64,000 nucleotides of DNA. Origin: Mytilus trossulus (lineage: Eukaryota). Where the stretch lies: contig NC_086378.1 in NCBI RefSeq assembly GCF_036588685.1, positions 52,266,001 through 52,330,000 on the forward strand. Direction: 5' to 3'. Of this stretch, positions 3,531 through 58,159 are shown in pieces (positions within the stretch are counted from its first letter, which is position 1; the number at the start of each line of letters is the position of its first letter). The translations under genes and the position numbers were made by a program. The notes beneath the pieces were generated by a model, which was given only the letters and a program-made list of their open reading frames with translations, did not search any database and was not told where the DNA came from.

Positions 3531-4677
3531 ATTATACTTAATAACTTTTTCATAGATATAAACCGTATTTTAACCAAATCATTTATCGACTTCTTACCAT
3601 GAGAACCTGAATTCATACCGATTATTGATAGCGCTCATGTTGCCCAATGTAGATTTTCAATATTAAGTTTCAGTGCGGCACGGGGACTGCAATATCTGCT
3701 CAAAATTAATTGATTGAGCAATGCAATGATTTGTTTCATAGCTTTTTCTTCAATAGATCGTATTTAAGTAAGAAACCAACTAGAAACTATGATTAGATAT
3801 AAAAGTTGACCTGAAGCAACTGACTGTTCGTTTTCTGCTTCTTAGGTGATGCAACACTTTTAATACTAAATGTTTTAAAAGTATTTATACATCCTCGGCA
3901 TTCAAACATTTTGGTTTGAGTGTTCATGGTTGATGTATATTCGACAAAAAAAACATACTATTTATAAAACGTTCTGTAGTTGACTAGCATATATAAATAT
4001 TTTTTTATATTTAATAAAAATAGGAAGAAAATATTTATAAACCAGTTATCGAAATGTTAATACAGTTGAATTAAATAAACACGTACAAATCTATTAATAT
4101 ACATTTTTATTCCATTATGATCTAACAATAATGATTTCATGTCTAAATATAGTTGTATATTGTTTATAAATTGTATACATCTGATATATACAGAACTATA
4201 CAAAATTTCAATTGATGGTGCAATACAAAATGTACACAATAAGAGTATTGCTATATGTTAAAATTTTCACATGAACATTATCTCATGATCACATTTGTAC
4301 TAATCTCACCAAAACAAATTAAAAAATTAATTACTGTATTGATGATGTATAATGATTTCTTCGAAACTTGACATATAGGATGTATAAGCGCATAACAGTT
4401 TTAAGTTATTCGTAACAGGCATTTCTATTACTTTTTAAGCTATTTACAGTTTTGTGTTTATTTAAAATATCATATTGCAAGGGAATGAAGTAATTACTGT
4501 AGTAAGCTATAGCCTAATAGGAGTTTGTCCTTTTTTCCCTTTTTTAAACGCTTTTTTTTTTTATTTTAATAACATATTTTAAATACATTTATTATTTATG
4601 TATTATATACATGTATATGTGGAATCGGATTGAATTTGCTAAATTTATTTTTGAGACATTTTTTTGAATATAACATT

Positions 4678-5565
4678 TTAGCCTCCATTATGTCTTGGTG
4701 GCCTTGCTGGAATATGCATTTCTGTCTTCATTGTTGGAGGACGCTCGTGTTCAATTTTGGGTTTCATCACCGCCGATTGAGCGCATCTCACTGGAACTTT
4801 TGATTCTGCAATTATATCAGTATTACCAAGTTGCATTTCTTTTGATGCAACGAAATACTCAGTTTGGTTGCTACCATCTGTAGAGATGCACGGGTGTAAT
4901 TTAAGCTGACGGAGGCGACGTTCTGGTCTATGAGTATTATCCGTCATACTATCATCATACCCCATTAATCTGAACATTGGCTTGACATTTTCAATTGCTC
5001 CCTGGACGAGTTTGTTATGTGTTACCAAGAGGTCCTTTAATTTTTGGAGTGGCAAATTGAAATCTCCTCCAATCAGAACTTCTACACCATGTGTCCATGC
5101 CAGGTATTGCGCCAACCATAAATAACTTGTAGCTTGTTGTTCTAGTTCCTCGGATTCTGCTTTTGTGAGGCTGTGATGCCAGCTGATGCAGTGGAACTGC
5201 TTGACGACATGCTGAGTTGGTTGAGGTGATAATATGTTCATTAATGGGAAAATCATTTGGCCTAATTGTACACCAGGTACCTTCAATGTTGGTATTAAAT
5301 CAAACCAATTTTGCATTTCTGGCTCTAATCGTTTGGAGTCGTACAGAAGGACAGTCTCCGAACTGAAAGCCAAATTTACTGGGCGGTAATCGTTGAGTGC
5401 GAATGAAGTCATATCTGGATTGTTACCTGGTAGAAACACCATATCGGGTTCATTCTGCCAGATTACATCATTCAAATAAGATTTTTGTTCAGATTGACAC
5501 TGCTCTCCATTTCTACCAAACAGTTTCATGCTTATAATGTTGAGTCTGTCTGTATATTTCCCCAT
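4678..5565 (-). CDS. EEP/DNase I-like fold protein, paralogue 1 (295 aa, single coding exon; probable pseudo-enzyme)
   Basis: The ORF aligns end to end with 13598-14488 and 22586-23476. It has EEP-type motifs IISM(K), EPDMVFL, CISWH and IGGDFN. The true start is probably MGKYTDRL (ATG at 5565), which matches the MGRD starts of the paralogues and follows a splice acceptor (AG at 5572-5571). The 14 extra N-terminal residues of the track ORF (5607) are likely intronic. Confidence 0.85.
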   Translation of the reverse strand: MGKYTDRLNIISMKLFGRNGEQCQSEQKSYLNDVIWQNEPDMVFLPGNNPDMTSFALNDYRPVNLAFSSETVLLYDSKRLEPEMQNWFDLIPTLKVPGVQLGQMIFPLMNILSPQPTQHVVKQFHCISWHHSLTKAESEELEQQATSYLWLAQYLAWTHGVEVLIGGDFNLPLQKLKDLLVTHNKLVQGAIENVKPMFRLMGYDDSMTDNTHRPERRLRQLKLHPCISTDGSNQTEYFVASKEMQLGNTDIIAESKVPVRCAQSAVMKPKIEHERPPTMKTEMHIPARPPRHNGG

Positions 5566-5702
5566 TTTACCTTTAAATACAATGAGTTTTTCATAAATAT
5601 TATTCATTCATTCACAATCTCTATACATAGAATGGAACAATAAAACGAGATAATGATATTGTCAACTCTATTGAAACCCCAAAGAATATTGTCTCATATT
5701 CA

Positions 5703-5975
5703 GGTGGTACCTAACACTACAGGGAGATAACTTTGTAAAATCAGCTAACCGTTTTAATTACGTTGTGTCTGAAGTCAATATTAAGCTTCTCAATGATTAA
5801 AATAAGTGTATGTCAAACTGCTATATAACCAGTGTCTTTTTTTCTGACAAAACGGTTGGTTAAAATTTTTTGAAATTTGTATATTTTTGTCAAAGGGTCA
5901 AAGTAAATACTTTGTTAAAATTTTATGAAAATTAAACGAGTCAAATTAATTTTAGTGAAAGTGTTGGGTACCACC
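5703..5975. mobile_element. MITE with GGTGGTACCYAACAC TIRs and TTAA-type target (Kolobok-like)
   Basis: Left ttca|ggtggtacctaacact, right agtgttgggtaccacc|ttaa. Confidence 0.7.
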
Positions 5976-6125
5976 TTAAGCATTGGTAAATTCATCAAAG
6001 CAGTCAGTACTGCAGGGATGTTTAGATTGCTATAATGCTTGTAAGCGCATTTCTTTTTCTTTATGAAGATTATGTTACAATCCTTTGCTATGTTGGATTT
6101 TTTTGGCAAGGGGGGGATTTTTATA

Positions 6126-6940
6126 CAAATATATCATGCTTATAAGGGGTATTTGCCAAAAATACCGGTTGAGAGGTTCAAATTTCCAGAGCCGATAGGC
6201 GAGGGAAATTTGATTACCTCGAAACCGGTATTTTTGGCAAATACCCCTTGTAAGCATGATATAATTGTTTAATTCCACCGAATGTTCCACCCCAGTAAGT
6301 TTATTATAATCAGGTATCATATGTAAGTTCTATTTGAATGTTTCATTTTTGTAAACACTGCCGCTGTGCTATTTGCGCAGTCAAATTGCAGTGACCGTAT
6401 AATGGTCTATAATCATTTCTTATCATTTTTTTTTATGTAAAGTCACTAGCTGACCTTTTTGTGATAATTTGCTGATTCTCGGCGGACTACTACACTTAGT
6501 TCATCAGTTTGACTGAAGCGTAATACAAGTGGATTCCAGTTTTATGTGACCAGTTGATAGTTCATTTCCATTGAATTTTATTTATGACGTCATTAAAAGT
6601 ACAGGTTCGCGGAATTTTAACGTCATTCAATAATGATGCTTTTTATTCTTAATATTTCATCTGGAACCGTATATTTAAAATGACCATGAATTTGTCATCT
6701 TAGAATAGAAATAATTAATTGAGTTATTTTTAGACATGGTTTTCCCCATCTGCCATGGTATTTGCTAGGGTATTCCCCATCTGCCATGGTATTTGCTAGC
6801 AAATTCCCCGGCACATGGAATTCCCTAATGACAAATACCCCGGCAGAGAAAAGAAAATATCAAAACATAGAAATTGGTTAAAAATACCATGTCTCTCATC
6901 CAATCAAAATACAGCATTATTACATAAGGTGGAATTATAT
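6126..6940 (+). mobile_element. long-hairpin element 1 (Crypton-like non-autonomous)
   Basis: Hairpin 6130-6263, then a module bracketed by TAATTCCACC (6270) and GGTGGAATTA (6928-6937), with CCAATC at 6900. Confidence 0.6.
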
Positions 6941-7390
6941 GTAAAATACACATTGTAAAAAATATTTTAACGTAAGTTTATGGCAGAATTTGTTGATCGT
7001 CATTCTTGTGTAAACGCCGCGTTAATACCCTTATATATCACACAGCAGAAATCTTATTGTGAATGCTATCATTCCATTAAAAGCAAGAAGAATGATAATT
7101 GAAGAATTGATATGTCCATAAACTCGCACATAAACGATTATATCAAACAGATTTTCAGAAAATGAAATACAATTCTATAAATAGATTTGTGAGTCGATTA
7201 TGTAACACTACGAATCGAAAATAGATAATGTGTTGTATGATAAAAAGGAATTTGTTAACAATAAAGGTAGAGTAGCTTTGTTTCAAATAGATGTTTATAT
7301 GTTGGTAGACATGGTAGAAGAATACTATATTTTTCAAAATTTCTTGACCCTTTTCATTGACGTTCCACATTTAGGATATATATAACTTAC

Positions 7391-7452
7391 CTTATAGTTA
7401 CGTTAAATTATTTTTCAATTTATTTATTTGAAGTTTGACCCGTTTTGAAGTT
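7391..7452 (-). other. predicted non-coding exon 2 of EEP paralogue 1 (62 nt)
   Basis: Minus-strand acceptor tttcattccacaagcag| and donor ataag|gtaagt at 7390. The size matches the equivalent exons of the other two paralogues. Confidence 0.55.
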
Positions 7453-9840
7453 CTGCTTGTGGAATGAAAATAAGATTTCTTGAAATAAATTAAGAAAATT
7501 TGAAATCAAAATTGATCGCGGACTGATTACGATATTGTCTTTTGAGTTCAAAATATACCACAGGGTGTTTGCTACAAACTCGAGGCTACAAAATCTATAT
7601 ATTCATAATAAAACGTCAATATTGTTCTATTTGGTGAATTTTAATGCATTGAATTTTCTCGTTTTATTGTTGCATATAAGTATATATCAGTAAACTTTTT
7701 ATGATATTCTGAATGGAGAATGTATCCAAAGAAAGGGAATAAATAGACCACGATTAAGTTATGATCATAATGACGCATAACTCCCTAATAAAATAGGTAT
7801 TTTAAGACAAAATTATTCGGGCACTGTTTAATTCCTTAATTTTATAATGGAATTACTTTTATCATTTTAAAATATTAAATATATTGTACTTTTGAATAAA
7901 AATAATTCATATTGTATTAAGCATATTTTGAAAATGACATATAATTATTTACTAACTCCTCAGTCAATCCTCGTTTTGTTGAAAAAGCTACAAATTTTGT
8001 TGCGAAATCTACGATGAGGTATAATAAAGAAATATTGAATTACTTATTTTCAATAATATGATAGAACAGGGATACTAACAACGTAGGTCCAACTTCTGAT
8101 CCTCAACAATTTAAAAGAAGTGTCAAAACTCAAATACTAATATTTGTTTAAGTAAAACCCTCGTGTGCATTATGATTTCAGTCAATGTTCCAATTATCAT
8201 CCAGTTTGATTGATTGTACACCCATAGTCAAACGTGAAATTGTTCGCGACACCCGACCTTCCTCTATCAATAACAGGCTGCTGCCACCGCTGATTTTTCA
8301 ACAGAAAATGTATTTATACTTTATTAATTTCATAAAGTATTGTTCTTATTTATGTTTATTATACATGTTTTCTAATTGATACTAGCGATATTTTTGAAAA
8401 TGTTTTATGAATTGCCTGGTTACTTTATCAGTAAATAAACCTACGGTTATTTGACAAGATTTCAGCTTCAGAAAAAGCTCCAGATAAATCAGAGCCATTT
8501 CCTATATTTACAACATTATACACAGTAGCAGGGGTATAGCAAGATTTTAAAAGTTATATGATATGCCTAATAAAATAATTAAATCAATCTAAAACACTAT
8601 ATGATATGAGAGTATATTAGTGTATGAGGCTGTACAATGACACATCAAGTTGATCACATCCACGTCTGGAAGATAATTGTCTCATGGGAAATCAAAGCGT
8701 ACCAAGTCTGTTTCACTAGTCTTTTCATCGTCTATTAAACCGGTTTAAGGAAGTATACGCTTGTCATGTTTTGGGATTTTTGTCAGATTTTCGGAAGCCT
8801 CTGGATTTATTCATTTGAATGCCTTGAAAACATTGCCCGTTGACTCCCATTTTTCTTTTTTTAAATCTTTTGCATGTATAATGATAAGCCATCAGCAAAA
8901 GTCTTATAACATTTATATTATTTTTTAATTGTTTTTTTAGAACTTAAACTTGTCAAAGATAAAGCTATAAAGAGTCAAGAGAGAAAATTTTCCCGCCAGA
9001 AATTCAATGGCTTATATGTATTTTTATTTCGTTTGAAATAGGGTTTTTCCCGTTTGCTATTTGTAGTTAATATTTACAGATGGGAACTAGTATAACTAGT
9101 TCGGATACTGGTTTTGTAACAGTATGTGCTATTTATAAGTTTGATATTAGGTGCAGGAGGCACGAGGAAAGTTTTGGCGGTTTTTATGGGTGGGGTTTAA
9201 AGGTACTATATAAAGTTTGGGATTTAAATGTATTAGTATCGAAGGTGCTCGCAGTTACGTCGGATTGAAGTTGGTCACATAGGTATATGTGCAGTTGCTG
9301 CTATGTTTATTGTACGTACAGGCGTTGGAGGCATTAGCCGGGGGAAAAGAAACGATGCGAAAGAGGAACAATGTTATATGTCATGTGTTTATATAATGTT
9401 TCGATTGAAGAAATATGTGCAATTCAGTAAAATAAAATATTGTATCGCAAGAGAAAATAAGATGTTACTGCGAGCAACTAATCCTATATCTGTGTTTGTC
9501 TTGTTTATAGCTTAATGAATTAGAAATTTAATGCTTTAAATTCGGACGAGCAGGGCGAGGGAGAATTTAAATCTCGAAAACTATCACATTGACCAATATA
9601 TATTTGTTGCTCTTTCTATTACGTTATTAATTCCCTATCAATATAAAATAGTGTTTTGAAAAGTTAATTATTTTGAAACTGACAAGCCAACTCCCTTACG
9701 AAATAAGATTGTTCTGTAGCTAAAGTTTTGTATTTTTCACTAGAAGCACTTGCATTGTGTGCAATCTGTTTGAATACAAATACAATATATGTAAGATATG
9801 GATAAAGAAGTAATGAATAAGACGAAAGTATAATCCTTAC

Positions 9841-9944
9841 CTGTTCTTGGATGTCAGCTTATTGAATGCAGCGATGTCTATAAAAATTTTCTACGCCGCA
9901 AATGGTTTAAACCAAAATCTCAGAAAACTTCCAACTATAAATAG
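9841..9944 (-). promoter_or_regulatory. predicted core promoter and non-coding exon 1 of EEP paralogue 1
   Basis: Donor cag|gtaagg at 9840. A TATA-like CTATTTATAG (9944-9935) is followed by TTGGAAGTTTTCTGAG, a block also found upstream of the other two paralogues. Confidence 0.5.
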
Positions 9945-11754
9945 CGTGTACTAGTATTCTAATAATACGAAGCGGATTTTACGTTTCCTTAAATAGCTCG
10001 AGATGATATACAATGTTCTACAAACTTAACAGGAATGAAAGAAACATACTTATATCATTAGCAGATCACAGACAAATCTTAAATCTGAAACTGATTTCGC
10101 TATTTTCTTGGCAATTGAAAATAAAATAAAGACACATTGCAATCTTTAACAACAAAAACACTAAAGACCGATAACGAAGTAAATATAATGTGTATACATA
10201 GTTGCTTAAATAAAGTTCAACGTATCAATCGTCTAAAATCTCTTAGATTAGGATATCGATCATATCTGGATCCGTCTCCAATATTTTTAGTTTCGAGCAA
10301 TTCTTTAAACAAATATAAAAAAGGTATAATCTTAACTGATATCTGTTACTTTACATTTTTTTTTCGTTTGAATTAAAAAAAAATATTGAACATGTGGCGT
10401 TATGTTTGAAAACAGTAAGGAATTAATGAAGTTACTATAATTAAGTAATAAATCTGTTCTATAATCTCCACTTATTAAAATGGTTGTTAGAATACTGCAA
10501 CCCAATATAACGTCTTTACAATCACCTGTTTAATTATGGCAACAGTGACAACCGAGAGTACATTTGAGGAACAAGGTTTAGATTTCAAGGATCAATGTTA
10601 AAAATAATATGCACAAAAGGGAAGAAATTGTTTTTTTCCGGAATTCTCTCATCATTCTGATTTAGCCTCATTGTTGTGTTCATCTGAGAGAAAGACCGCT
10701 TCTTGCAAAATAAAGTATAGAAAAGGTGCATAACATACCACATACAAACGACAAACAACAAAGCAATAACTATATGCATAACATGAGTGAACACACTGGC
10801 ACACAAAACATGAGTGAATATAAAGGTATTTTATTGTTCAAAAAAGACTTGCACAACAATAGCTCAGAAGACAAGCAAAATTATGGTAATGTCATAAAGT
10901 AAATCAGGATGATGTTCAATTAAACTGATTATATCAATGCAAAACTTTATGATTACCAGGATTGATTTCCATATTAGACAGGAAAACTTTCATTAAGGAT
11001 GATACAATGTATGTGTATTTCGCAAACTTACAAACGTTCTATTTTGGTACATTTTTAGGGGCTTCTTTTTGTCATGGTATTTTTGTTTTGTATTGAATTT
11101 CTGTTTGTATGATTTTACTATTCGCTTATTCCTCTTTGTATATCTTCCCTCTTCCTATTGGTTTTCTGCTCCTGTTTACCTTGACTTCTCAGTTGTATTG
11201 TTTGTGTATTTTCCTCCAGATAGTGATTTTTATATCCCTTTATACACTGTTAGATCGATTTAAATTAGTTGTTATTTATTTCATTCATAATATAAAATTG
11301 AGGATGGAAATGGAAAATATGTCACAGATCAGACAACAACCGATTGGTGTACAAAATATCCAATCATTATATACAAATCCCGCAAGAAAATTTTACAAAT
11401 AATACATTTTATAACATCATACAAGAGAACCTTTGATTAGAACCTGGGTTGTCATAAAAACATATATCAGGAGAAAAGACTTTTCGTTTGAATTTCTTTT
11501 GATATTATTTATGAAGTCATGCACGTGTAATAGGTATTAAGGTCATGAGTATATATTTTTATTCAGCTTTTAAAAAAGTCAAAAGTGAAAGTAGAATTTA
11601 CAATTTTAGAAGAACTATTCACTAATTATAACTTTATGTGAACATCGTGCTAGCCTTAAACTATTAAATATGATCAAAGAGTAGAATATATGAATTGATT
11701 TTATTATTCATAACACACAATCCTTGAGAGACACTGACAGAAGAAAATAAAAAA

Positions 11755-12077
11755 TGGGAGGGTTGAGATCTCATAAACATGTTTAACCCCGCCGCAGTTT
11801 TGCGCCTGTCTCAAGTCAGGAGCCTCTGACCTTTATTAGTCTTGTATATTTTTTAGTTTTAATTTCTTGTGTACAATTTGGAGTTAATAATTTTAGTATG
11901 GCATTCATTATCACAGAACTAGTATATATTTGTTTAGGGACCCGCTGAAGGACGCCTCCGGGTGCGGGAACTTCTCGCTTCATAGACGACATGTAGGTGA
12001 TCTTCTGCTGTTGTTTATTCTATGGTCGGGTTGTTGTCTCTTTGACACATTCCCCATTTCCATTCATAATTTTATTA
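11755..12077 (+). mobile_element. 3' end fragment of family A PLE-associated repeat
   Basis: Matches 30045-30360 (gggagggttgagatctc...cacattccccatttccatt). Confidence 0.85.
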
Positions 12078-13597
12078 CTCGTATCGAATGAAATACAATG
12101 TGCATTTTCCACGAAAAAATAAAGAGAGCGTATAATGTTATGCAGTGTTTATATAGACACTTATTCCTTTAAATATACATCGTCATCAGTAAAATATCCA
12201 CAAAGTCATTTTGATTAAGTTTGATCAACCGCATACTGAGGAGTACAACTTGTCAAATCAAAAATCAACAACCGACTCAAAAAAACGATGGACGCACAAA
12301 CAAAAGAAAACAACCTCGAAATGTATAGGATCCAACTAGCTGACTAAGTATCATACATAAATGATTTCCAAAAAAAAAACGATTATTTTTATAGTTTTCT
12401 GAACTCATTTGACTTAAATCATGTACAAAATGTATAAGCATGTTTGTTTATTATTTGGTAATTTTTACATTTTGTCATATAGTTTTGTCCAGATATTACC
12501 CTGTTTGTCTCTTCCTCATTTTAGAAGCAAATACTGTTGAAGATATAAAAGAGTCGTAACACGGGGCAACATTAAAATTTCAATTTATGATAACATTTCA
12601 AAACAATTGTGTGTGTTTTTGTTGGGTTTGTTTACTTGCTGTTGGTACAGTTAATTTAGATTTATAATAGTTATGTTCTCACGTTTCATCTATATGGTAT
12701 CAAATGCTACAAGCGTCCCCCAACTACAGTTTTTGTTGTTATCTGTATTGAGTTCCTCTTTCGGTGACAATCGTGTCCATTGATTATTTATTTTACGGGA
12801 TTTAAAAAAAAAAATTGAATAAAATTAATTGTTCAACAATATATCCTATGTGTCTCAAAACTCACATTACTACTTAGCTTCGAGCATGAAGGGTGTACAT
12901 GATCGACAATAACATTATAATGTAAAGATTTTTCAAGTCATTTGTCAATCAAATGATTGCATCAATACAGCTTTTTATGTTGGGTTCGTTTTGCTTCTTC
13001 TCTTCTTTGCTACCCAATTTGATCAATAATTAAATTATGGTATATTAACATAAACTTTATTTATAAAAATTAAACTAAATACATATAAAACATATCTGTC
13101 CGAAGGAAGACAATACAATGTACACATAATTCCACATAAGGCTTGCATAAATCATTTTGTAAAACGAAGTAAATAATGTTTTATGTATCAATATTACACA
13201 GTGGATTCAGAAACTCCCTAATAAAAGAAGAGTATGTATATGTCTGCAAATATTAGTCTTCAACAAGTCATATAATGCTTTAAAGTGTAAACACAATATC
13301 ATCGTTTCCAATCCATTTGAATCATAATAAATCAATCACAATATTAACATGTAAAATATCAAAATAATATAGTAAAACAGTCTTTATTTACAGAGTAATT
13401 ACTACTTAATAAACCTATAAATTTCATAATTTTTTTTCTCGGATTTGTTACCTTTATTTATTTTTCTATTTTTGAAGGATAAAATAAACATATATACTAA
13501 TAAAATGAAACCAGATAAAGGCGAAAGACAACCTTTACGAATAATACTTAGAATCTATATACAGGTAATTTAATAAACAAAATAAAAGGAAAAGATT

Positions 13598-14488
13598 TTA
13601 ACCACCGTTGTGTCTTGGTGGCCTTGCTGGAATACACATCTGTGTCTTCGTTGGCAATGGACAGAAATTCTGTACAGCTGGCCTGTTCATCGTCAGAGTG
13701 GTGCATCTTCCTGGAAGTGTTGACGCTGTCATCATTTCGGTCTTACATAGATTCATTTCTTTTGATGCGACAAAGTAGTTGGTGTCCCCGTTAATCCCTG
13801 CCACCGACTTACACTTGTGGAGTTTAAGTTGTCGGAGTGCACATCCTGGTTCTTGTATATATTCTGTCATTTCATCCATATATCCATGTTTCCTGAAAAA
13901 TGGTTTAATATCTTCGACGCCCTTTTGAATGAGGGTATTGTGTTCATCTAGAAGCTCTTGTATCTTCTTAATTGGCAAATTAAAGTCGCCTCCAATCAAG
14001 ATCTCTACTTTAGAAGTCCATCCAAGATATTGTGCAAGCCATAGATACCGAGACGCAAACTGATAGAGTTCCTGTGATGTTGTTTGAGTAAGCTCCCAAT
14101 GCCAGCTGATGCAATGAAATTTCTTGACCGTATGTTGAGTGGGTTTTGGAGCCAAGACTTCGAACAAAGGATACATTAACTTGCCTTGTTGTATGCCAGG
14201 AACTACCATAGATGGCACCATATCGTACCAATCTGGTGTACTCAATTTCAATCTCTTCGTATCGTACAAAAGTACAGTTTCGTGGTTATGATGGACTTGT
14301 GTTTGGCGATAATCATTTAGTTCTGAGGACGACATATCAGGATCGTCTCCGGGCAGAAATAATAAGTCGGGTTCATTGTCTCCGATTACATCTTTTAAAT
14401 AAGACTTTCGATAGTCCTGATATTGCCGTCTTTTTCTTCCAGAAGCATTCATGCTAACGATTGTAAGTCTGTCTATATCTCTTCCCAT
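13598..14488 (-). CDS. EEP/DNase I-like fold protein, paralogue 2 (296 aa)
   Basis: Intact ORF with IVSMNASG, EPDLLFL, CISWH, IGGDFN and C-terminal IPARPPRHNGG. An acceptor (cttacag|, ending at 14499) lies just upstream of the ATG. Confidence 0.88.
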   Translation of the reverse strand: MGRDIDRLTIVSMNASGRKRRQYQDYRKSYLKDVIGDNEPDLLFLPGDDPDMSSSELNDYRQTQVHHNHETVLLYDTKRLKLSTPDWYDMVPSMVVPGIQQGKLMYPLFEVLAPKPTQHTVKKFHCISWHWELTQTTSQELYQFASRYLWLAQYLGWTSKVEILIGGDFNLPIKKIQELLDEHNTLIQKGVEDIKPFFRKHGYMDEMTEYIQEPGCALRQLKLHKCKSVAGINGDTNYFVASKEMNLCKTEMMTASTLPGRCTTLTMNRPAVQNFCPLPTKTQMCIPARPPRHNGG

Positions 14489-14988
14489 ATTTGATTTTCT
14501 GTAAGTATAGTTTAAATACTATTTGAGTAACTGATATCAGTAGTTCTGAATGCAAAGAACGGTGAAAATATAATTTGAAAAATGATCATGTCTATTAACT
14601 CGTCCATAAACTGATTGAACTTATTTTCAGAAAATGTACACTACCCTAAAAATAAATCCGCGATCGATTACATAATTTTACACACAAAATAATGATTAAA
14701 CTTGTTGTACATTTAATGTGGATGTATATACACAAAGATAGTCGGTTTGGTTTGTATCCTTTTTTTTTGTGTAAATTTTTAACAATAGTTTTACTTTCCG
14801 CACCCGGGTTCTTTTTTCTTTTAGTATTCATTCGATTTCTGCTGGTTTCGTCTTTTATCTTTATTTTTGTCTGTTTACTCTTGTTAATGAAAAAATGAGA
14901 TTTGAATATTAGTTAACTGTACGAATATGTGTTGGTTTAGTGTTTACACATGAGACATGAAATGAGATAATAACAATTAACTTCTTAC

Positions 14989-15056
14989 TTTTTTCTGACC
15001 TTCTTTATATTGTAGTTGTTTAAATTCCTTTATTTGAATTGAAAATAACGCTATTT
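14989..15056 (-). other. predicted non-coding exon 2 of EEP paralogue 2 (68 nt)
   Basis: Acceptor ttttttttcag| at 15057 and donor gtaaga at 14988. Weak similarity to 7391-7452. Confidence 0.5.
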
Positions 15057-15290
15057 CTGAAAAAAAATCTTTATTTTACAAACATAAATATATTTTTTAT
15101 TTTCTTGCAGTCCATTTTTTATGGATTTCTTTTTTGTGAACTCATGATTTAACTTTTACTTTCACAATCATCAAAACGATTTTTGAAAACTACTGTCATA
15201 AATGCACATATTTCATATATTAGTAAGTAAATACGACGTATTTAGCTCAGACAGTAAAGATACTGTTTGTGTAAAATTTAAAACACTAAC

Positions 15291-15384
15291 CTGTATAGTT
15301 CTGTCGTCGAATGCACAACTGCAATACTTAATAACATGCGCAGTTAATAAAAATGAATCTCTGAAAACTTTCAGATGAATTTAG
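15291..15384 (-). promoter_or_regulatory. predicted core promoter and non-coding exon 1 of EEP paralogue 2
   Basis: Donor cag|gttagt at 15290. The shared block (plus strand ctctgaaaactttcag) starts at 15359, but the TATA position is degenerate here. Confidence 0.45.
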
Positions 15385-16620
15385 TATTCGATCATGAGCC
15401 TGAAATAGATTTGGGATTTTCCACATGTATAAAAATAGCTTTTGATTTGATAAAATTCAAAACCTCAGAGTTCAAAACATCAATATACCAAATCATTTAC
15501 GATGTGATGATAATTTATAGATATGTGGATTTCTTATGAGAATTACAGTCAATTAGCGCTTGAACTGTTTCGAAAGATGAACATGCAATTAGTTTTCAAC
15601 TATTTTAAGCTTTGACCTTTCCTTATGAAAATAAATCTAGACAATCACTTTCAAAGCATGAGCTAATAACGTGGTGTTATCATTTTTTGTACGAACTGAT
15701 CGATATTATTATTGATACTTTGGTTGGGTTAACATGCAATAACGTTAAAATAAATAGTAAAGATTTGTCAAAAAATCCAAAATTTAATATTAAAAGAAAA
15801 ATGTTTTTTATCAAACGTGTTAAAAATAAAGCCAACAGTTGTAGACCACTGTTCGAAATTCATAACTCGATTGCGAAAAAGAAACATAAATCAAGTTACA
15901 AACTAAAACCTAGGGAAACACACCAAATACAGAACGTTTTAGTGTATTTACTTTTCACCATTTTTATTGTGAAGTGGAGTTAGATTTTGAAATTGAATGC
16001 ATACAATGTATCTTTATCAGTGTCCGTGTTGCATTTGTATAAACGTTTACACTTGTTTGGAAGTTAAACACATCAAAACTACCTTCCCTAGTTTTGAATG
16101 TAAATCGTGAAAATGTAAGCATACCATTTAGGTTATAGAGGACTTCATGTATTTAAACATACTGTCTTTGTTATAATTCGTTCCAATTTTTTGACATATA
16201 TGTATAATACGTGCATGCCTGACGGACTTTTCAATAAATAAATGAAAGTGAAAATAAAAGCTAAATCGAGAGTTAACTATGTTAACAAACAGAACATAAG
16301 TTGATATCATTTTGAATAGGATTTTTCCAACTGTAATTAAATTCAAAACAGCAAATATTTATATAAACATAATAGGAGGGATTGTGAATGGTTTTCATTT
16401 TATAAAAATATACTCTATCAACAAGCTTAATCTCTTTAATCTAGGTCTGAAGCTTGCATGTCTGAATCTGCCTATGTAGAAAATAATGGATTAAACCTGG
16501 TGTTAAAGCTAGCTAAACCTCTCACTTGTATGACAGTCGCATCAAATTCCTTTATATTGACAACAATGTGTGTACTAAACAAAAAGACAAAATTGTTAAA
16601 AATGTCATACATCAAACTAT

Positions 16621-17106
16621 TAGTTACATAGTGTGTTAGTGACCTAAAACCAAAAATACGGTGTCAGTAAATTCCATATGGGGTGAGAGTGTATTAAGTC
16701 ACTAGCACACTATGTAACGAATGTATCCTACCGACTATATTCATTTGTTGAATATTTAGAATAGAGCTGTCACATTTCCATTCAAACCATATCTTATTAT
16801 TATTATATAAAAGTGTTCAAGTGATCAATTTTAAGAACCTTCTTCCATTGGTCTGCACACAAAATAATAATGTCAGCAATAACAATTTAAGATCAGTAAC
16901 CGTTGTATACAAATATTGAACTGAATTTTCAATACATTTGAATAATAAAATATTGCACAAGTCGTAAGTCCACTACTAACTGTGTATTGAAATAAGCCCC
17001 CCCCCCCCTTTTTTTACCTACTAACCTAATATGGAATATACACGGTCTTCAAGCGGGCGCTTTTAACCAATCATATTCCTAGAAATATATAAGAGGTAAG
17101 ATAAAT
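16621..17106 (+). mobile_element. long-hairpin element 2 (Crypton-like)
   Basis: Hairpin 16623-16718; ATGTATCCTACC / GGTAAGATAAAT brackets; CCAATC at 17067. Confidence 0.5.
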
Positions 17107-18559
17107 GATAATACCGTCCACTATGCACCATACTCCCATTACAACATACACGTTTTCTTAAGGATTGTTTACCTTTTGAGGGTAAAATTACAAATCGAGT
17201 TCACACTGTCCAATTAAATTTCTTAGTCTTATATCGATTTGCTTTTCTACCACACGCGTTCATTATTATTATCATTAGTCTGTTCCTATTTATTCTCCAT
17301 TTCTGCAAAATTATTGATTTAGTTTAGAATCATGTTGCTGTGTCATATTTCGTCTTACGATTGAAGATCTGTGCAGAATTAAATAATCTGTAAGTTATTT
17401 CGGAAAAGTTGAAACTGAATTAAATCGAATCAATTTTAATGCACAGACATATGAATGCTAAATGTGGTAGAGTTTCCGGGGTGTTTATCTGTAACTTTTA
17501 AGTAGTTTATTTTTATTTATTCTGACCAGCATCTATCCATGCAAACTACTCATGCTTTCCAATTTATTCGATATAATTCAACTCCGAGATACATTTTTTA
17601 TATAAAAACACATTCGTGCAACCCAATCAGGAGTGGATTTTACATAGATAGATAAAATCGTATTATAAAAGAGCATTTTTGTTTTTTAATTTGAGGAATG
17701 CCGTTTTGTGATTCTTTGTTACATTTGTTTGTTTTTATAGTGATTTTAAAATGATAACAGAATGGTTACTGTTGCACCCCTATTTTTGACATTTTTACCT
17801 AATGTGTCTGTTTGTTTTGCTCCCGCATCGTCTCAATATAATGGAGTTGAATGCAACAGCCATTCAAGTCAGAGGTTTAGCTAGTTTTAAAACTAGATTA
17901 AATACATCTTTTTCTACATGGGAAAATGACTGTACCAAGTCCGAAATATGACAATGGTTATCCATTCGTTTGATGTGTTTGAGCTGTTGATTTTGTGATT
18001 TGATTTATAATGACTTTTCAATTTAAATTTTCCTTAGAATTCCGTATTTTTGAGATTGTACTTTTCTAGTGTAAATGAAATACCTTTTGAATTTACATGT
18101 TACATTTTTTTGAAGTAGATGATGCACAATAAAAGTAATCTGAGTTCTACAGTCTTTTTTAATTAAAAAAAGTATCATGTGTCTGAGCTTTTGATTTTGC
18201 CATTCGATTAGTGACTTTGCTTTTTGAATTTTTCTCGGTGTATTGCTTTATAGTTTTAGTTTCATTAATTATAATTATAGTCTATGTTTTAAAATCCACA
18301 GTTTTTTATTTAAGAATTTTGAAATGAAGAATAAGACGCGACAATTGGCACAAATGATAGTCGATTTCAAATTGAGATATTCGGAGTTATTTCTAGGTAA
18401 ATCCAGAAAAGCTCAAATTTAACCGTGTTATTTTCATTCATATAATTTTGTTAATCAAGTTTTTTAAAAAATTCCTGTTGTATTAAAATTTTATGTTCTA
18501 TCATAGACATGCTTATATATGGAATAAGTAAATTATATATATTTGATTAAGGAATCTGC

Positions 18560-19450
18560 ATTTTGTAAATTTCTTATATACTTGTATTTCAACGACAGAC
18601 AATTCCTTATGACACCTCTTAGAAAGGGTAATACCTGAAGTTCTCTGTAACAACACTGTGCCGACGACTTTTTAGAAAAGTTGCTGTTTCTTATCTTTTG
18701 TATAAAACAATAGAATGTGTAGATTTAACCTACTGAACTTTTATAAAGCGTATATTGATAATAATCACACTGCCTTTTCCGGGATCTTGATTTTACCTTT
18801 ATCTTCAACGGGAAGCTGAATTTCAAAATATGAGATAAAAGTGATGATTTTTTCATTATTATTAATTATTGATTTTTAAATGATGACGTTCCCTTGTAAG
18901 CGTCTTATAGTGTTTATGTATTTTAACTTGTTCGATTTGCTCATGTGCGTAACAACATATTCGATTTGTAGCCTCTGACAAATCTCTGTATTACTGAAAC
19001 ATTATTTCAACAAGATTTTTGATCACTCAAACTAGTCAAAACATTTACTAAATGTTATCATCGGTACAAGGACACCATTTGTAAACAAATAAAAACAAAT
19101 CAACAAGAACATATCTTTTACGTCTAGGTATTTCACAGCAATATTCTATACAAGGCATTTACCTTACAAAAAGTAACCAAGCCTTAAAACAGACTTATTT
19201 AAAAGGGATATAGTTGCTACTTGTATACTGTTGTAATGTCCATAAAGGTAACATATTTTGGTATAACTATTGATTCATCCATAGGGTCGTTTCAACGGAA
19301 ATAAACTCCTTTATTCTAGGACCAGTTATTGACATGATACAGGAGGGATTTTGCTTGATTTTTGCTTTAATTACGAAATAATCTTTCAGTCAGTTTAGTT
19401 GAAGTGTAGAACCGGCATGTCAGTAACTGCTTGTAATCATTTGTTTATTC
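18560..19450 (+). mobile_element. decayed Penelope-like RT fragment (family A)
   Basis: Homologous to 29330-29900 (cttgttcgatttgctc..., cactcaaactagtcaaaacatttactaaa), with many indels. Confidence 0.75.
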
Positions 19451-22400
19451 ATCTATCCTTAGTTTCCTTTGTACCCATAAATCATTTGTAAATTGTAGCT
19501 TTCAAATTTGTACATTAATTTCGATTTAAACAAAATCCAATTTAAACTCGAAAATGAAGTCTTATGTGACAATGCTCAGTCATGATTCTACTTCGTCAAA
19601 ATTATCTCCCCATTACGCCAGTTCCTTTTCACATTGCACTATTACAATCCTTATATGCCAGTAATTTTTTTAAACGACAAATGTATCAACTAGCAAATGA
19701 GCATCAGTTAATATCTTGTCTGCATTGATTCAACTAAAAACTATTGTCTGATCGGTTGTCAGGTGGAAATTAAAAAAAATCTAATTAAATATTTCTTGAA
19801 AGGGCAGACTAGATCTTTTTAGTGGTTGAAGACTATAAACCCTAGTTATCACACACACAAAATTATAATTTTTCAAAGACATGCAATTTCATCATCCAAC
19901 TTGGAAGACTGTCACCAAGTACTTATAGTAAAAAACATAGCTATTCGATCACACCTACTCTGATTTTTTGATTCATTAGGTATTTCATTTGACCAATATA
20001 TTTTATCTTTTAGCATTGTGATTTTTTATGTTATAAAGTCAACCTGTAGCTTTGATATATAAAAATGATAGAATCTGAAGCTACACGATGTATGAAATAT
20101 TCTTGCGTTGTACGATATCAAGACAAAATATTCAAAATATTCAACAACAAAAAACTCAGACACGCCCTAAGATAAAAAGGTGCACTCGATTTTCACTTTT
20201 CGATACATTTATTACCGTTTATGGGAATTTTTTCTTGAGTCACATAATGAAAGTACAGACACGAAAATTACTGAACTAATAGATTGATATCTTTTCCGTC
20301 CGTGGTAATTTTTAAACATTAATCGGAGGTTATGCCTTTTTACTACATCCAACTTGAAAGATATTTATGTCGTCGACTTGATATCTAATTGTTCTGCTTA
20401 GCTGTTTTAGATAGATTGAAAACTTATGCAAATGGTGTTTTAAAAAAATCCAATTCGTAATTAAGAAGAAAATTGTCATTTTATTTGTTTCTATTAACTT
20501 TTAAAACTTGTGTTTCTATAGTAAACATTACAGTAAGCATTTATCGCCTCTCTAACAAAGAGCTTCGAATCTTTTGTTCTATTTCAACCGGTTTTCCGAC
20601 TGTGCTGTTTTCTATGAAACAACCATTGACAAATTTCATCATGTTGTGCTTTTGCATGTTCCTGTTTTTAATTTTTATCACAAAACAAGTATTGTAACAT
20701 AAATGGAGTTGAACCTAGCTTGCACTAAGTTTTATTCTGTATGCATTTCTGTGCATGTGGTATTATCTTTGTCCTTAAGTTTCGTTGTTGATAGCTGTGT
20801 CATTGATAATCGTACCAAATCTTCGAATTTTTATATTGTGATGGACTTTTTCAACTGCATATACTTGTTTTTAAAATATTGATAAGGAATAATAATGAAA
20901 TATGTTTTATTTACAATGTAAGATGCTACAAAATGATAGTTACAATGTTGTAACACATATATTTAAAGCTTTTGCTCTTTTGATTAAAATTTGAAATTAC
21001 TAACAAAGATTAAATAAGCCACTTATAATTTAGAAATGAGTCAATTACTTCGTAACATATACAAGCTTTGTCTTTCTTTCCATAAGTTCAAAAAATACAT
21101 CAAATCCTTTTTTACATGTAATTTACTTAATGTAGTAGCAAATACAAGTAGTGGATATGTTTTTAAAAGAGATTCATTTTCGAAAATTCATTTCATCACC
21201 AAAACGAAACTATAAAATCGATTATATAACCTTTAGTCTGAACATTTCTCTCCAGACTGGACAGGTACATACTATTCATTTATTTTGAAGATGAAACAAT
21301 TATCGAATGTAGGACTTTGAACTTTTTTTATTGATTTGTATGTTGCATGCTGATTTTCTTCTCTTTTTTATTTCATACACTTATTTTGCATCAATGCTTA
21401 CAAACTAATACTATGATGCTTATATTATTGCTATGAGTTATACAAAGGATATAAATAAGTGTATGTAAATAGCAGTGACTCATAACAATGATACCATATT
21501 TTCCGGTCATTAAACTATTATTTATGAACTGACTTTTTCAACAAAATTGCCGATTGCATGCTTGCATTTAAATGACCATATGCAATTAAAAAAAAAGGAA
21601 TACGAATAAAAAGTTTGGCTTACCTCTACATTATGTGGTATTAATATAATTGATTTAAAGGGTTTATATAAGTACTTCAAAATAAATGTTTCACTTAGTT
21701 GACAGAGCGAATGATTTAATTGCGATAACATAAATAAATGATAGCTAACCGTCAAAATAATTTACAAAAAGGATAACACATAAAGCTGAAGATGTACATA
21801 CAAATGTTTAATAAATATGTCAAACATAAAATCTGTTTACAAGGATATGGCACTTTGAAATGCTTTTTTCTAAATATAATAAAGAAATTAACGATATAAA
21901 ATCAATAACAAAATGTGATTTTAAAACCATAAAACTGAATTTCACAGAGTAATATAATCATGTGCAATAATACAGTACAGGAGCACAAGTTATTAACTAT
22001 CAAATTGACAATCAAATACACAATTCACACAAAGGTAGATATTTTTTATTGGAATGTTAATTAATACTCAAACTTTGTGCTTTACATCCTGAACAATTTT
22101 GAGAATTGAAATGTGATTTAGTGATATTGAAAACAAAACCTAAATATTAACAAATAAATCACACTTTTATCTATTGTAAAGATTACAATTTTCGCGTGTT
22201 GTTTGTTTTCTTGAAAAATTATTCACACAATTTATTATGATTTTTAAGAAAAATCAAAATTAGGAACTCGAAAAAAGAAAATAGAACTTCGCAGACAATG
22301 CAAGTATGTTTTTCATATTCAATAGGTTTGATTCAATACAAATAAACAACTTTCACAAATATATATACGAAATAGAAAAAATGAAGGATCCTTATTCAAA

Positions 22401-22585
22401 AACAAAAGGGTGAAAAAAATAAATAAAACTTGTTTATTTTTTTTATTTTTTTTTTTTGCGGGATGCCCCTATTTGTCAATACATTATATTAAAAAAAAAC
22501 ATGAAAAAAACTCCCACCGTAGACATGATACCTAATTTTGATTGGTTACAAAACATAACCAAAAACCATATATATAGATTTGATT

Positions 22586-23476
22586 TTAACCACCGTTGTG
22601 TCTTGGCGGTCGTGCAGGAATACACATTTCTGTTCTCGTTGGTGCAGGACAGTATTGATGTTCAGCTGGTCTTGTTACAGTTAGATTTGTGCATCTGCCT
22701 GGCAGGATGGAAGTCGTCATCATTTCCGTATTACATAGCTGCATTTCCTTTGAGGCAACAAAGTATTCGGTTTCCTGGCTAACGCCTGAAATAGATCTAC
22801 ACTTGTGGAGTTTGAGTTGTCGAAGCCGTCGTCCCGGTCGATTAACATTATCCGTCATTTCATCCATGTATCCCATGTCCCTGAAAAAAGGTTTGACATC
22901 TTCAAATGCTTTTCGAACGAGTGTATTATGTTCATCTAGAAGCTTTTGAATAGTTTTAATGGGCAAATTAAAGTCGCCTCCTATCAGGATCTCTACTTCA
23001 GAAGTCCATCCAAGATATTGCGCCAGCCATAAGTAACGACGTGCAAACTGACAAAGTTCATCTGTTGTTGTTTGCGTGAGCTCCCAATGCCAGCTTATAC
23101 AGTGGAACTTCTTGACAACATGTTGAGTCGGTTTAGGAGCCAGGATATCAACTAAGGGATACATGAGTTTGCCCGTGTGTATGCCAGGAACTACCAAGGA
23201 TGGTATCAGATCGTACCAGTTTGGGGTTTTCAATTTCAACCTCTTCGTATCGTACAAAAGTACAGTCTCGTGATTATGAGCGACTTGTGCTTGACGATAA
23301 TCAGTTAGGACTGGTGAAGACATGTCTGGCTCGTCTCCAGGCAAAAATAATATATCTGGCTCATCGTGTCCTATAATTTCGTCCAGGTAAGACTTTCGAT
23401 AGTTTTGATACTGTTTTCCTTTCCTACCGGAAGCATTCATGCTAACTATCCTTAATCTATCTGTATCTCTTCCCAT
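22586..23476 (-). CDS. EEP/DNase I-like fold protein, paralogue 3 (296 aa)
   Basis: Intact ORF, closest to paralogue 2, with the same motifs. An acceptor (ccctttcag|, ending at 23482) lies 5 nt upstream of the ATG. Confidence 0.88.
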   Translation of the reverse strand: MGRDTDRLRIVSMNASGRKGKQYQNYRKSYLDEIIGHDEPDILFLPGDEPDMSSPVLTDYRQAQVAHNHETVLLYDTKRLKLKTPNWYDLIPSLVVPGIHTGKLMYPLVDILAPKPTQHVVKKFHCISWHWELTQTTTDELCQFARRYLWLAQYLGWTSEVEILIGGDFNLPIKTIQKLLDEHNTLVRKAFEDVKPFFRDMGYMDEMTDNVNRPGRRLRQLKLHKCRSISGVSQETEYFVASKEMQLCNTEMMTTSILPGRCTNLTVTRPAEHQYCPAPTRTEMCIPARPPRHNGG

Positions 23477-23845
23477 TTTGTCTGAAAGGGTAAAATGACG
23501 TTTTTGTAATGCTTTCTATGTTCATTCTTTATACACATGCAGCTACTTTTTAGATATTCACAGTGTATTGAAGTGTAAATCAACATTTGCTCTTAATTCC
23601 GCTAAACCGATTTCCAGAAAATGTAGTTAAAAACATAAACAGATCTATGCTATGCGGTTCAATAATTCCACGATTAAATATACATGTAGGTCAGTAATAT
23701 AGGCGGATATGCAATACATGTAAATGTAAAGTTGATATTCTAATGCATTTGGAATTTATTTATCTGTATTTATTCTTATTTCATCTGATCATATCTTGTT
23801 TAACATATATTCAGAAGCTAAATTCTAATGACATATTTTGCTTAC

Positions 23846-23908
23846 CTTCTTTTCTTCCAAGATATTTTTGTTGAAATTTGTTCGTTAAATTGATAACACA
23901 GTATTTAC
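23846..23908 (-). other. predicted non-coding exon 2 of EEP paralogue 3 (63 nt)
   Basis: Acceptor tgtcatttcag| at 23909 and donor aag|gtaag at 23845. Confidence 0.6.
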
Positions 23909-24049
23909 CTGAAATGACATTAAAAAAATTAGGTCAGTTTCTCATGTTCTAAAATATTTTAAAAACATTTGTCTTATACTATTATATTTTTTCATTTGTA
24001 GTTTGATTTTTATTATTTTGAAATTTCAGATACTTTTCCAAAAGTTAGA

Positions 24050-25670: not shown

Positions 25671-26095
25671 AAACTCGGAGAAAGGTAGTCAGTATAGAAT
25701 ACCTGGGGGAAGAGGGGGAAGAGTAATTGTTTTTAAAAGTATAAAAATAAAAAGATGTGCTTTGATTGCCAAGGATAAAAAACTTCACAAGAGACTAAAC
25801 GACAAATTAATTAATTAATTATTTGTCACCGTATGGCCTTCAACAATTAGCAAATGTAACTATTTCTTTATTTTTCTATGGATTAACTGACGTTGGCATC
25901 AATATGTATTAAAGCAAACTTAACTGTTTTGAAAATCTGCCTCATTAACTAACTGTTTAAGCAGATTTCTTTTTTAAATTAACAAAAAAGTTGAAAAGTG
26001 GTTATATATTTTTTTTAACAAACGAAAAGATGACATATGTGTTACTCATGTTACTTAGATAATAATAGATACAATAAAGTTTGAAAATGTCTTAC

Positions 26096-32787: not shown

Positions 32788-33116
32788 CAACTTACGACCA
32801 TGCAAATGAACACACAGCTAATTTTGAACTAATTGTATATTGCTGACTACTATTCTCTATGAATCAATAACAAAAGAAGTGCCAAGGTGATTATGTAATA
32901 GTGATGATTAATGTTCTGATGTCATAGGCTGGTTCTAAAATACATGTCATATAATGAGTCCGATTCATTGGTTTTTTTTCTATACATCGGGTCAAACGTT
33001 TGAAACGTCTTGCACAAACTCAAAGCATAAATCTTAAATAAAAATAACTCGTCCCAAATCATTATAAGAACTTTAATCCTTATTTTTATATAAAAAAAAA
33101 CAAGTCATCATATAAC

Positions 33117-58100: not shown

Positions 58101-58159
58101 TACATTACACGTCTTCATTTGTTATAACAAGTGTTTTGAATATCAGCAAAGAGATTAAT

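What the first reader, a model, noticed from the sequence alone, without database searches (positions are those of the whole stretch)
4678..22621. Invariant C-terminal IPARPPRHNGG: an SH3-type PxxPxR motif fused to a di-glycine end
Seen: the last 11 residues are identical in all three paralogues (4678-4713, 13598-13633, 22586-22621) while the preceding ~30 residues diverge. Codons differ only synonymously (CCA/CCT, AGG/CGA, CCA/CCG, CAT/CAC, AAT/AAC, GGA/GGT, GGC/GGT), so selection acts on the peptide. Established: PxxPxR is the class II SH3 ligand; terminal -GG is the KLHDC2 C-degron and the activation motif of ubiquitin-like modifiers; RxxG(x) ends are APPBP2-type C-degrons. Inference: the tail is a functional module, either a built-in CRL2 degron that keeps the proteins short-lived, an adaptor-docking site, or (speculatively) a conjugatable tail.
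Basis: partly seen in the sequence, partly recalled or inferred. Interest (0 to 1): 0.7.

Follow-up and report, generated by a model that had tools for sequence, protein, structure and literature searches.

The report
Bivalve pseudo-nucleases with di-glycine degron tail
Mussels, oysters and clams share a family of proteins with a predicted nuclease fold that lack key catalytic residues yet nearly all end in an Arg-Pro-Pro-(Arg/Lys)-His-x-Gly-Gly tail, which is predicted to plug into the ubiquitin-ligase receptor KLHDC1/2 and would likely mark them for destruction.

Summary
In detail: three minus-strand ORFs end in IPARPPRHNGG-TAA, with 16 synonymous and 0 non-synonymous differences in the tail. 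They belong to a five-gene tandem array in a Mytilus mussel. The proteins have an EEP (DNase I/TDP2-like) fold (Z 17), but the metal Glu and the DH His are gone, so they are likely inactive. They form one clade whose named members are all bivalves; 57 of 58 members that reach the C-terminal region end in GG, against 0 of 73 more distant EEP hits. The conserved core is R-P-P-[RK]-H-x-G-G, not PxxPxR (30 of 68). The mussel has a KLHDC1/2 with the Arg-Ser-Arg anchor intact, and the tail co-folds into its pocket (0.64 vs best control 0.24; possibly from memory of solved complexes). Best reading: a native KLHDC1/2 C-degron on a pseudo-enzyme (0.5). The SH3 and conjugation readings are weak. The conserved His, Arg and prolines are not explained by the known degron rules. 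No half-life or binding data exist.

The parts
4678..5565 (-). Paralogue A coding sequence, one coding exon, 295 aa, EEP-fold pseudo-nuclease (an in-frame ATG at 5607 lies outside the part covered by transcript contigs)
   Evidence: contigs cover 4388-5572 and 4492-5572
4678..4713 (-). Tail A: IPARPPRHNGG + TAA
13598..14488 (-). Paralogue B coding sequence, one coding exon, 296 aa
   Evidence: contig 13444-14498
13598..13633 (-). Tail B: IPARPPRHNGG + TAA
14499..14988 (-). GT-AG intron in the 5' untranslated part of paralogue B
   Evidence: joint in one contig of run X2; ends checked
22586..23476 (-). Paralogue C coding sequence, one coding exon, 296 aa; used for the structure models
22586..22621 (-). 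Tail C: IPARPPRHNGG + TAA (residues 286-296); residues 288-296 lie in the KLHDC1/2 pocket in the co-fold
22622..22639 (-). Last beta-strand of the EEP sandwich (residues 280-285, TRTEMC); the tail starts after it
   Evidence: DSSP of both models
22652..22654 (-). Tyr275, at the place of the catalytic His of the DH motif of the sister family
23336..23341 (-). Pro46-Gly47, at the place of the Gln-Glu metal-binding motif of the sister family
23482..23845 (-). GT-AG intron in the 5' untranslated part of paralogue C (a second joint 23904-26092 points to a further upstream exon)
   Evidence: joints in one contig of run X3; ends checked

Best explanation
The three genes encode likely inactive proteins of predicted EEP nuclease fold whose conserved free Gly-Gly end is predicted to bind the mussel KLHDC1/2 Kelch propeller, which would make it a built-in C-degron that likely keeps the proteins short-lived. 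Shown: the tail, its selection at the peptide level, its spread through bivalves, the loss of the Glu and His motifs in the same clade, and a KLHDC1/2 gene with the Arg-Ser-Arg anchor in the same genome. Predicted: the EEP fold, a 10-residue tail beyond the last strand with the last 3-4 residues unpacked, and the fit of G295-G296 at R212/S246/W247. Inferred: that binding leads to ubiquitylation and turnover, and that turnover is what selection preserves, e.g. removing copies not bound to their partner or location, as for MIC19. What the EEP body binds is not known; a nucleic acid or phospho-ligand in the old active-site cleft is the default guess.
For: (1) 57 of 58 hits among P0001-P0074 that run 30 or more residues past the FxAS motif end in GG; 0 of 73 more distant hits P0075-P0147 do. 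Seven further GG-ending relatives came from a later search, 7 of its 9 new rows, the other two being cut short. Named members span Mytilus, oysters, Pinctada, Mercenaria, Ruditapes, Mactra, Mya, Dreissena, Sinanodonta and Potamilus. (2) A tree of the core without the tail puts all 37 GG rows in one 41-row group (SH-aLRT 99, quick tree, midpoint root); the other 50 rows have none. (3) Terminal Gly and di-Gly are depleted in normal eukaryotic proteomes, and over 95% of random di-Gly-ending peptides drove degradation (PMC8013793). (4) The KLHDC2 pocket takes about seven residues and ubiquitin's tail is too short for it (PMC7458402); here 10-11 residues follow the last strand and pLDDT is under 50 at 293/294-296 in both models. 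(5) Mussel P0286 aligns to human KLHDC2 at E 1.6e-82 with R212, R217, S246 at the places of R236, R241, S269 (the three residues are named in PMC11470957). (6) Co-fold score 0.64, best of 3 controls 0.24; runs agree in at least 72% of contacts; partner pLDDT at least 43; the mark was reached by 51 of 78 solved microbial complexes and 2 of 108 mismatches, on eukaryotes by 71 of 105 solved and 2 of 126 unrelated pairs. (7) An acidic residue lies in the last 7 positions in only 1 of 68 tails.
Against: KLHDC2-degron structures are solved, so the co-fold may be from memory; peptides are untested in that tool's calibration, no control peptide ended in GG, my alignments were not used, and R217 is not among the listed contacts. 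KLHDC2 holds the residues before the di-Gly by backbone contacts (PMC11568203), so it does not call for His(-4) (62 of 68), Arg(-8) (65 of 68) or Pro(-7,-6) (65, 64 of 68): a more selective partner may exist. Only 5 of 10 natural di-Gly-ending human proteins tested were KLHDC2 substrates. KLHDC3 and KLHDC10 also took di-Gly substrates in vitro, so the receptor is not unique. One related locus, L052, has an open frame that breaks off after TEMC with no tail in the remaining kilobase. Two oyster gene models and P0074 leave the frame at the last Gly and run on; P0056, P0059, P0065, P0299 run off before the last strand. Residual activity in mussels and oysters is not excluded: N14, H130, D168, N170 are mostly kept and Asp48 (51 of 57) lies next to the lost Glu.
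Confidence: 0.5

Rival explanations
1. The tail is a ligand for another reader of free C-terminal Gly-Gly that also reads side chains, such as a ZnF-UBP domain (HDAC6, USP5, USP16, BRAP2) or an unknown bivalve protein, and serves docking rather than turnover.
For: His(-4), Arg(-8), Pro(-7,-6) and a basic residue at -5 (67 of 68) are almost as fixed as the glycines. 8 of 14 human ZnF-UBP domains bind a free Gly-Gly end, and USP16 binds the non-ubiquitin histone H4 tail (PMC13493902). Basic(-5)-x-x-G-G matches the spacing of ubiquitin's R72 (recalled).
Against: Those domains bound the H4 tail weakly and only USP16 and USP3 did so. No such partner was modelled or looked up here.
Confidence: 0.22
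2. The tail packs onto the protein's own fold or a neighbouring copy (oligomer), and the His or terminal carboxylate fills the emptied active site.
For: Tail gain and loss of the Glu and His motifs fall on the same branch. Residues 281-290 have mean pLDDT 80-83, so Ile-Pro-x-Arg-Pro may pack on the domain.
Against: The last 3-4 residues are low-confidence in both models. In clams and freshwater mussels H130, D168 or N170 are lost too while the tail stays, so it cannot be completing a catalytic site there. No homo-oligomer fold was run.
Confidence: 0.12
3. The Pro-Arg part is an SH3 ligand (class II PxxPxR, or amphiphysin-type PxRPxR), with the glycines as a second or incidental signal.
For: All three window genes match both PxxPxR and PxRPxR (motifs as given in PMC3219718); PxxPx[RK] holds in 59 of 68. 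In oysters a gene with SH3-like MIB/HERC2 domains lies next to the family.
Against: Strict PxxPxR holds in 30 of 68, and in 5 of 21 after thinning to under 60% identity; six of those 21 fail even the relaxed form, while GG and His(-4) hold in all 21 (that set was chosen for GG ends). The motif does not explain a fixed terminal position. No VWA-MIB/HERC2 gene lies in or beside the mussel array.
Confidence: 0.08
4. The tail is activated by an E1-like enzyme and conjugated or thiocarboxylated like a ubiquitin-like protein or sulfur carrier.
For: Fixed Gly-Gly end just after a final beta-strand; resemblance to MoaD/MOCS2A PPxxGG and URM1 HGG ends (recalled). Bacterial CD-NTases are conjugated without a ubiquitin fold (recalled).
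Against: No beta-grasp domain: the fold hits cover residues 2-289 as EEP. The window's other long ORFs are GPCRs, not E1/E2 genes.
Confidence: 0.04
5. APPBP2 (RxxGx) is the main receptor.
For: RHNGG fits R-x-x-G-x in all three window genes; positive charge nearby favours APPBP2 degrons.
Against: The Arg is the most critical residue (R-5A 18-fold weaker; Lys not reported in the passages found) and is Arg in only 35 of 68; APPBP2 does not need a terminal Gly, which is what is fixed.
Confidence: 0.04

Closest known systems
KLHDC2/KLHDC1 di-Gly C-degron on native proteins (MIC19, PTOV1, SEC61G and others in PMC8013793 Table 1)
   Same: Genome-encoded terminal Gly-Gly on a full-length protein, conserved across species, on a tail long enough for the pocket; receptor anchor residues present.
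   Different: Carrier is a pseudo-enzyme restricted, as far as named hits show, to bivalves; five further tail positions are nearly fixed; degradation not shown.
EEP superfamily (TDP2, nocturnin, APE1/ExoIII, LINE endonuclease)
   Same: Fold (Foldseek E 2e-8 to TDP2; VIA Z 17.2, rmsd 3.4, 216 aligned), strand-1 Asn, SWH and GDFN motifs in mussels and oysters.
   Different: QE is PG (53 of 57 Gly), DH motif absent (0 of 57 vs 46 of 51 in the sister group); 11-18% identity to solved members; no Pfam match for the window proteins.
Uncharacterised invertebrate-type EEP family with ISWHG, GGDFN and DHDP motifs (hits P0075-P0147)
   Same: Nearest sequence relatives found (E 1e-14 to 1e-3); share SWH, GDFN and FxxS motifs; several match Pfam PF03372.
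   Different: They keep the catalytic set and never end in GG; taxa mostly unnamed in my calls.
Ubiquitin-like modifiers and sulfur carriers (URM1, MOCS2A)
   Same: Terminal Gly-Gly after a last beta-strand.
   Different: No beta-grasp fold; tail is longer and proline-rich.

Membership tests
EEP superfamily | Four-layer alpha/beta sandwich of DNase I type | tested here: met
   AlphaFold2 model pLDDT 80.7, pTM 0.82; 35 chains at Z 8 or more, the top 38 rows all of this fold
Active EEP enzyme | Metal-binding Glu after strand 2 (role recalled from APE1/TDP2) | tested here: not met
   Gly in 53 of 57 clade rows, Glu in 44 of 51 sister rows; Asp48 next to it might partly stand in
Active EEP enzyme | Asp-His motif before the last strand (role recalled) | tested here: not met
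   0 of 57 vs 46 of 51; a His alone at that column in 4 clade rows
Active EEP enzyme | GDFN Asp/Asn and SWH His | tested here: inconclusive
   Kept in the window genes and most mussel/oyster rows (D 42, N 47, H 46 of 57), lost in clam and unionid rows
KLHDC2/KLHDC1 C-degron | [quoted passage not shown] | tested here: met
   contigs cross each stop unspliced (runs only guessed to be RNA, joint table cut by 25 rows)
KLHDC2/KLHDC1 C-degron | Exposed tail of about seven residues or more | tested here: inconclusive
   Predicted only: 10-11 residues after the last strand, low pLDDT at the end
KLHDC2/KLHDC1 C-degron | Receptor with Arg-Ser-Arg anchor in the same organism | tested here: met
   P0286, R212/R217/S246; whether it uses CUL2 or CUL5 was not tested
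KLHDC2/KLHDC1 C-degron | Binding to the receptor | tested here: inconclusive
   Co-fold 0.64 vs best control 0.24, a textbook-type pair
KLHDC2/KLHDC1 C-degron | Receptor-dependent ubiquitylation and turnover | not testable with these tools
   needs cells or reconstitution
APPBP2 C-degron | R-x-x-G within 0-3 residues of the end | tested here: inconclusive
   3 of 3 window genes, 35 of 68 family members
Class II SH3 ligand | PxxPxR kept across orthologues | tested here: not met
   30 of 68 strict; 59 of 68 with Lys allowed
Class II SH3 ligand | An SH3 partner | not tested
   no partner modelled
Ubiquitin-like modifier | Beta-grasp fold before the Gly-Gly | tested here: not met
   the model is one EEP domain up to residue 286
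Ubiquitin-like modifier | Cognate E1 and conjugates | not testable with these tools
   needs biochemistry
ZnF-UBP ligand | Binding of the free Gly-Gly end by a ZnF-UBP domain | not tested
   literature only

The most novel reading that the evidence does not exclude
An ancestral bivalve turned a nuclease into a natural degrader or ligase plug: the dead EEP domain grips a target (nucleic-acid-bound or phosphorylated) and the fixed R-P-P-[RK]-H-x-G-G tail hands it to, or blocks, the KLHDC1/2 ligase. Mussel KLHDC1/2 ends LACSIS, not the Gly-Ser self-plug of human KLHDC2, so a plug supplied by another protein is open; the paralogue arrays would give different targets one shared handle.
Probability: 0.15. 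Interest if true: 0.8.

Novelty: new variant of a known kind. Interest (0 to 1): 0.5.

Why it matters
Eukaryotic proteomes avoid di-Gly ends, and few native KLHDC2 substrates with a clear purpose are known. A family that lost catalysis and gained a di-Gly tail on the same branch, and kept it across the main bivalve lineages (several hundred million years, age recalled), is a natural test case for why a protein would carry a permanent C-degron. It also gives the first handle on an unannotated multi-copy bivalve gene family, and a high-constraint tail that could define side-chain preferences of an invertebrate KLHDC1/2.

Tried and rejected
Pfam scan of the three window proteins: no family at E under 0.1. 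Sequence search of solved structures: only weak TDP2 hits, E 0.17. Search of the genome for the tail as a mobile module: pattern PP[RK][HN]xGG-stop gave 6 matches, 4 in this array; the other two have no open frame before them and the reversed control gave 2. Searches of the genome with distant members found nothing beyond the five array genes (P0057) or nothing (P0145); lower bounds only. Selenocysteine read-through (GG-UGA as in SelK/SelS, recalled): stops are TAA in four genes and TAG in one, rejected for this genome. Gene conversion as cause of tail identity: rejected by synonymous divergence. Tail His completing an active site: rejected for clams. Conserved linkage to a VWA-MIB/HERC2 gene: not in mussel. 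Viral structure library: only generic EEP hits at 8-15% identity, no sign of viral origin. Metagenome scan gave one locus. The careful tree did not finish; the quick tree is used, with 19 near-duplicate rows dropped by hand and rows with under 150 core residues left out. Literature: no paper holds six of the gene ids; searches gave nothing on this family; supplementary tables are not searched and may list these genes as differentially expressed. The original KLHDC2-degron structure paper was not held. Earlier findings of this scan: none.


Full report
Observation. The proteins are 52-74% identical. The tail is the longest invariant run (11 columns; next 9, 8, 8). With half of all columns invariant, shuffles give a run of 11 or more somewhere in 6% of cases and at the very end in 0.025%. 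The tail has 16 synonymous and 0 non-synonymous differences, with pS close to the core (0.60 vs 0.71), which shows selection on the peptide and argues against recent gene conversion. Contigs of public runs cross each stop codon into the 3' flank without a joint (4388-5572, 13444-14498, 22288-22640), and show GT-AG introns only upstream of the start codons. These runs are only guessed to be RNA, and the joint table was cut.

The locus. The genome holds five matches, all in one tandem array; two lie just left of the window (G000:C6:52261899-52262795 and 52256679-52257533) and end IPSRPPRHNGG and IPATPKKHSGG. Homologue names place the window in a Mytilus mussel. The tail pattern was not found on any other open frame in the genome.

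The carrier. Pfam is silent, but the AlphaFold2 model (pLDDT 80.7; 84.5 with a deeper alignment) matches the EEP superfamily: TDP2 at Foldseek E 2e-8 and VIA Z 17.2, rmsd 3.4 over 216 residues; the language-model atlas agrees. The last strand is residues 280-285/286; the tail follows it, and residues 293/294-296 have pLDDT under 50 in both models. A profile search over 1.84 billion representatives gave 108 hits. A quick tree of the core without the tail splits 91 rows into a 41-row group with all 37 GG-ending rows and a 50-row group with none (SH-aLRT 99, midpoint root). The four non-GG rows of the first group are three that stop before the last strand and one long-branch Dreissena protein ending PPPMPGA. 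The first group has Gly for the metal-binding Glu (53 of 57; Glu in 44 of 51 of the others) and never the Asp-His motif (0 of 57 vs 46 of 51) (the catalytic roles are recalled from APE1/TDP2). Mussel and oyster members keep Asn14, His130 and GDFN; clam and freshwater-mussel members lose most of these as well but keep the tail. So loss of catalysis and gain of the tail mark the same branch.

What is conserved. Of 74 top hits, 59 end in GG; 58 extend 30 or more residues past the FxAS motif and 57 of those end in GG. Among 68 GG-ending proteins: Arg(-8) 65, Pro(-7) 65, Pro(-6) 64, Arg/Lys(-5) 67, His(-4) 62, Pro(-10) 63; strict PxxPxR 30, PxxPx[RK] 59, RxxGG 35; an acidic residue in the last seven in 1. 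These counts include many close mussel and oyster relatives; after thinning to under 60% identity strict PxxPxR is 5 of 21 and RxP[RK]HxGG 19 of 21 (a set chosen for GG ends). Mean column conservation is 0.79 in the tail against 0.51 in the core; the best tail window ranks with the best core motifs, not above them. Gly2 is also common (47 of 55).

Mechanism. Terminal di-Gly is the consensus for KLHDC2 and KLHDC1; an Arg-Ser-Arg trio binds it and 4-5 upstream residues are held by backbone contacts (PMC11568203: first of 12 parts and search passages read). More than 95% of random di-Gly-ending peptides were degraded, di-Gly ends are depleted in normal proteomes, MIC19 has a conserved native di-Gly degron, but only 5 of 10 natural di-Gly proteins were substrates (PMC8013793: sections 6, 7, part of 9 and passages). 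The pocket takes about seven residues, too deep for ubiquitin's tail (PMC7458402, passages). The mussel genome has a KLHDC1/2 gene on contig C3; its protein P0286 aligns to human KLHDC2 at E 1.6e-82 with R212, R217 and S246 at R236, R241 and S269 (residues named in one passage of PMC11470957). A co-fold of its propeller with residues 265-296 scored 0.64 (best of 3 controls 0.24; runs agree in at least 72% of contacts; partner pLDDT at least 43; mark reached by 51 of 78 solved and 2 of 108 mismatched microbial pairs, 71 of 105 and 2 of 126 eukaryotic ones). G295-G296 touch R212, S246, W247, K123, W167 and A195-A196; R292 touches Y33, S73, H90; H293 touches I319-L320. Like complexes are solved, peptides were not calibrated and no control ended in GG, so this shows fit, not binding. 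I put the KLHDC1/2 degron reading at 0.5: it explains the fixed glycines, their terminal position, the tail length and the lack of acids, but not the near-fixed His, Arg and prolines.

Rivals. A side-chain-reading partner such as a ZnF-UBP domain (PMC13493902, passages) or an unknown protein would explain those residues (0.22). Packing onto the fold or a neighbour may explain Ile-Pro-x-Arg-Pro, whose block has pLDDT 80-83, but not the free end (0.12). The SH3 reading fits the window genes (motifs in PMC3219718, two passages) but fades across the family (0.08). APPBP2 needs the Arg (PMC10614623, passages), which is Lys in about half (0.04). Conjugation lacks a beta-grasp domain (0.04). A microbial protein can bind KLHDC2 by a di-Gly end without being ubiquitylated (PMC12259106, abstract only), so binding need not mean ordinary turnover.

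Results against. Locus L052 holds a close relative whose frame leaves the family sequence after TEMC, with no tail in the remaining kilobase; an intron, a chimeric contig or a true loss cannot be told apart. Two oyster gene models (P0183, P0211) splice at the last Gly codon into a neighbouring VWA + MIB/HERC2 gene; separate models of both parts also exist (P0181, P0184), and the full-length oyster members listed from assembled runs end in GG, so merged models are the likelier cause, but read-through is open. Four clam-type sequences run off at one place before the last strand, as a retained intron would.

Novelty. Native di-Gly degrons and pseudo-enzymes are both known; their union in an undescribed bivalve family, with five extra fixed positions, was not found in print (main texts of the held library only; no supplements were read). 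I rate it a new variant of a known kind, interest 0.5.

Noticed in passing
G000:C6:52256679-52257533 and 52261899-52262795 (L001), left of the window: Two more paralogues; the farthest has GGNFN for GGDFN, a shorter linker and the most changed tail (IPATPKKHSGG, TAG stop).
   Followed up: yes
P0183, P0211, P0184 (Magallana oysters): The family lies next to a gene with a VWA domain and two MIB/HERC2 domains; two gene models fuse them at the last Gly codon.
   Followed up: partly
G000:C3 about 3.87 Mb (L036, P0286): KLHDC1/2 gene; the protein ends LACSIS, without the Gly-Ser self-inhibitory end described for human KLHDC2. An exon that looks like KLHDC3 (recalled motif) lies at C3 about 20.99 Mb (L033).
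   Followed up: partly
P0145 (Dreissena): Very diverged member with no catalytic motifs that ends PPPMPGA; Ala is tolerated at the last place of KLHDC2 degrons.
   Followed up: partly
first codons of all five genes: Gly2 is conserved (47 of 55 family rows, MG[RKYF]D); could be a Gly/N-degron or myristoylation site as in MIC19, though the acidic residues that follow argue against myristoylation (recalled).
   Followed up: no
L052:1180-2052: Close relative with open frame but no tail.
   Followed up: partly
window 33117-34277 (-), 44850-46031 (+), 49859-50734 (+), 57983-59335 (+): Four long ORFs of rhodopsin-type GPCRs (Pfam 7tm_1); the third ends early at the place where the fourth goes on. A Mytilus coruscus model (P0293) fuses the first to an EEP paralogue, which shows the same gene order there.
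   Followed up: partly
window 29260-29718 (+): 152-codon frame that looks like the end of a retroelement ORF (recalled resemblance; no Pfam match over cut-off).
   Followed up: no
window 5700-5980, 8760-8870, 11750-12080, 25050-25170: Short interspersed repeats with very high contig depth.
   Followed up: no
window 32319-32828 and 36964-37529: Simple tandem repeats that give spurious ORFs.
   Followed up: no
P0076, P0078, P0088, P0102: Sister-group EEP proteins with two EEP stretches, a CCCH finger, an Ifi-6-16-like stretch (below cut-off) or a BTB domain; hints at an immune or ubiquitin link of the wider family.
   Followed up: no
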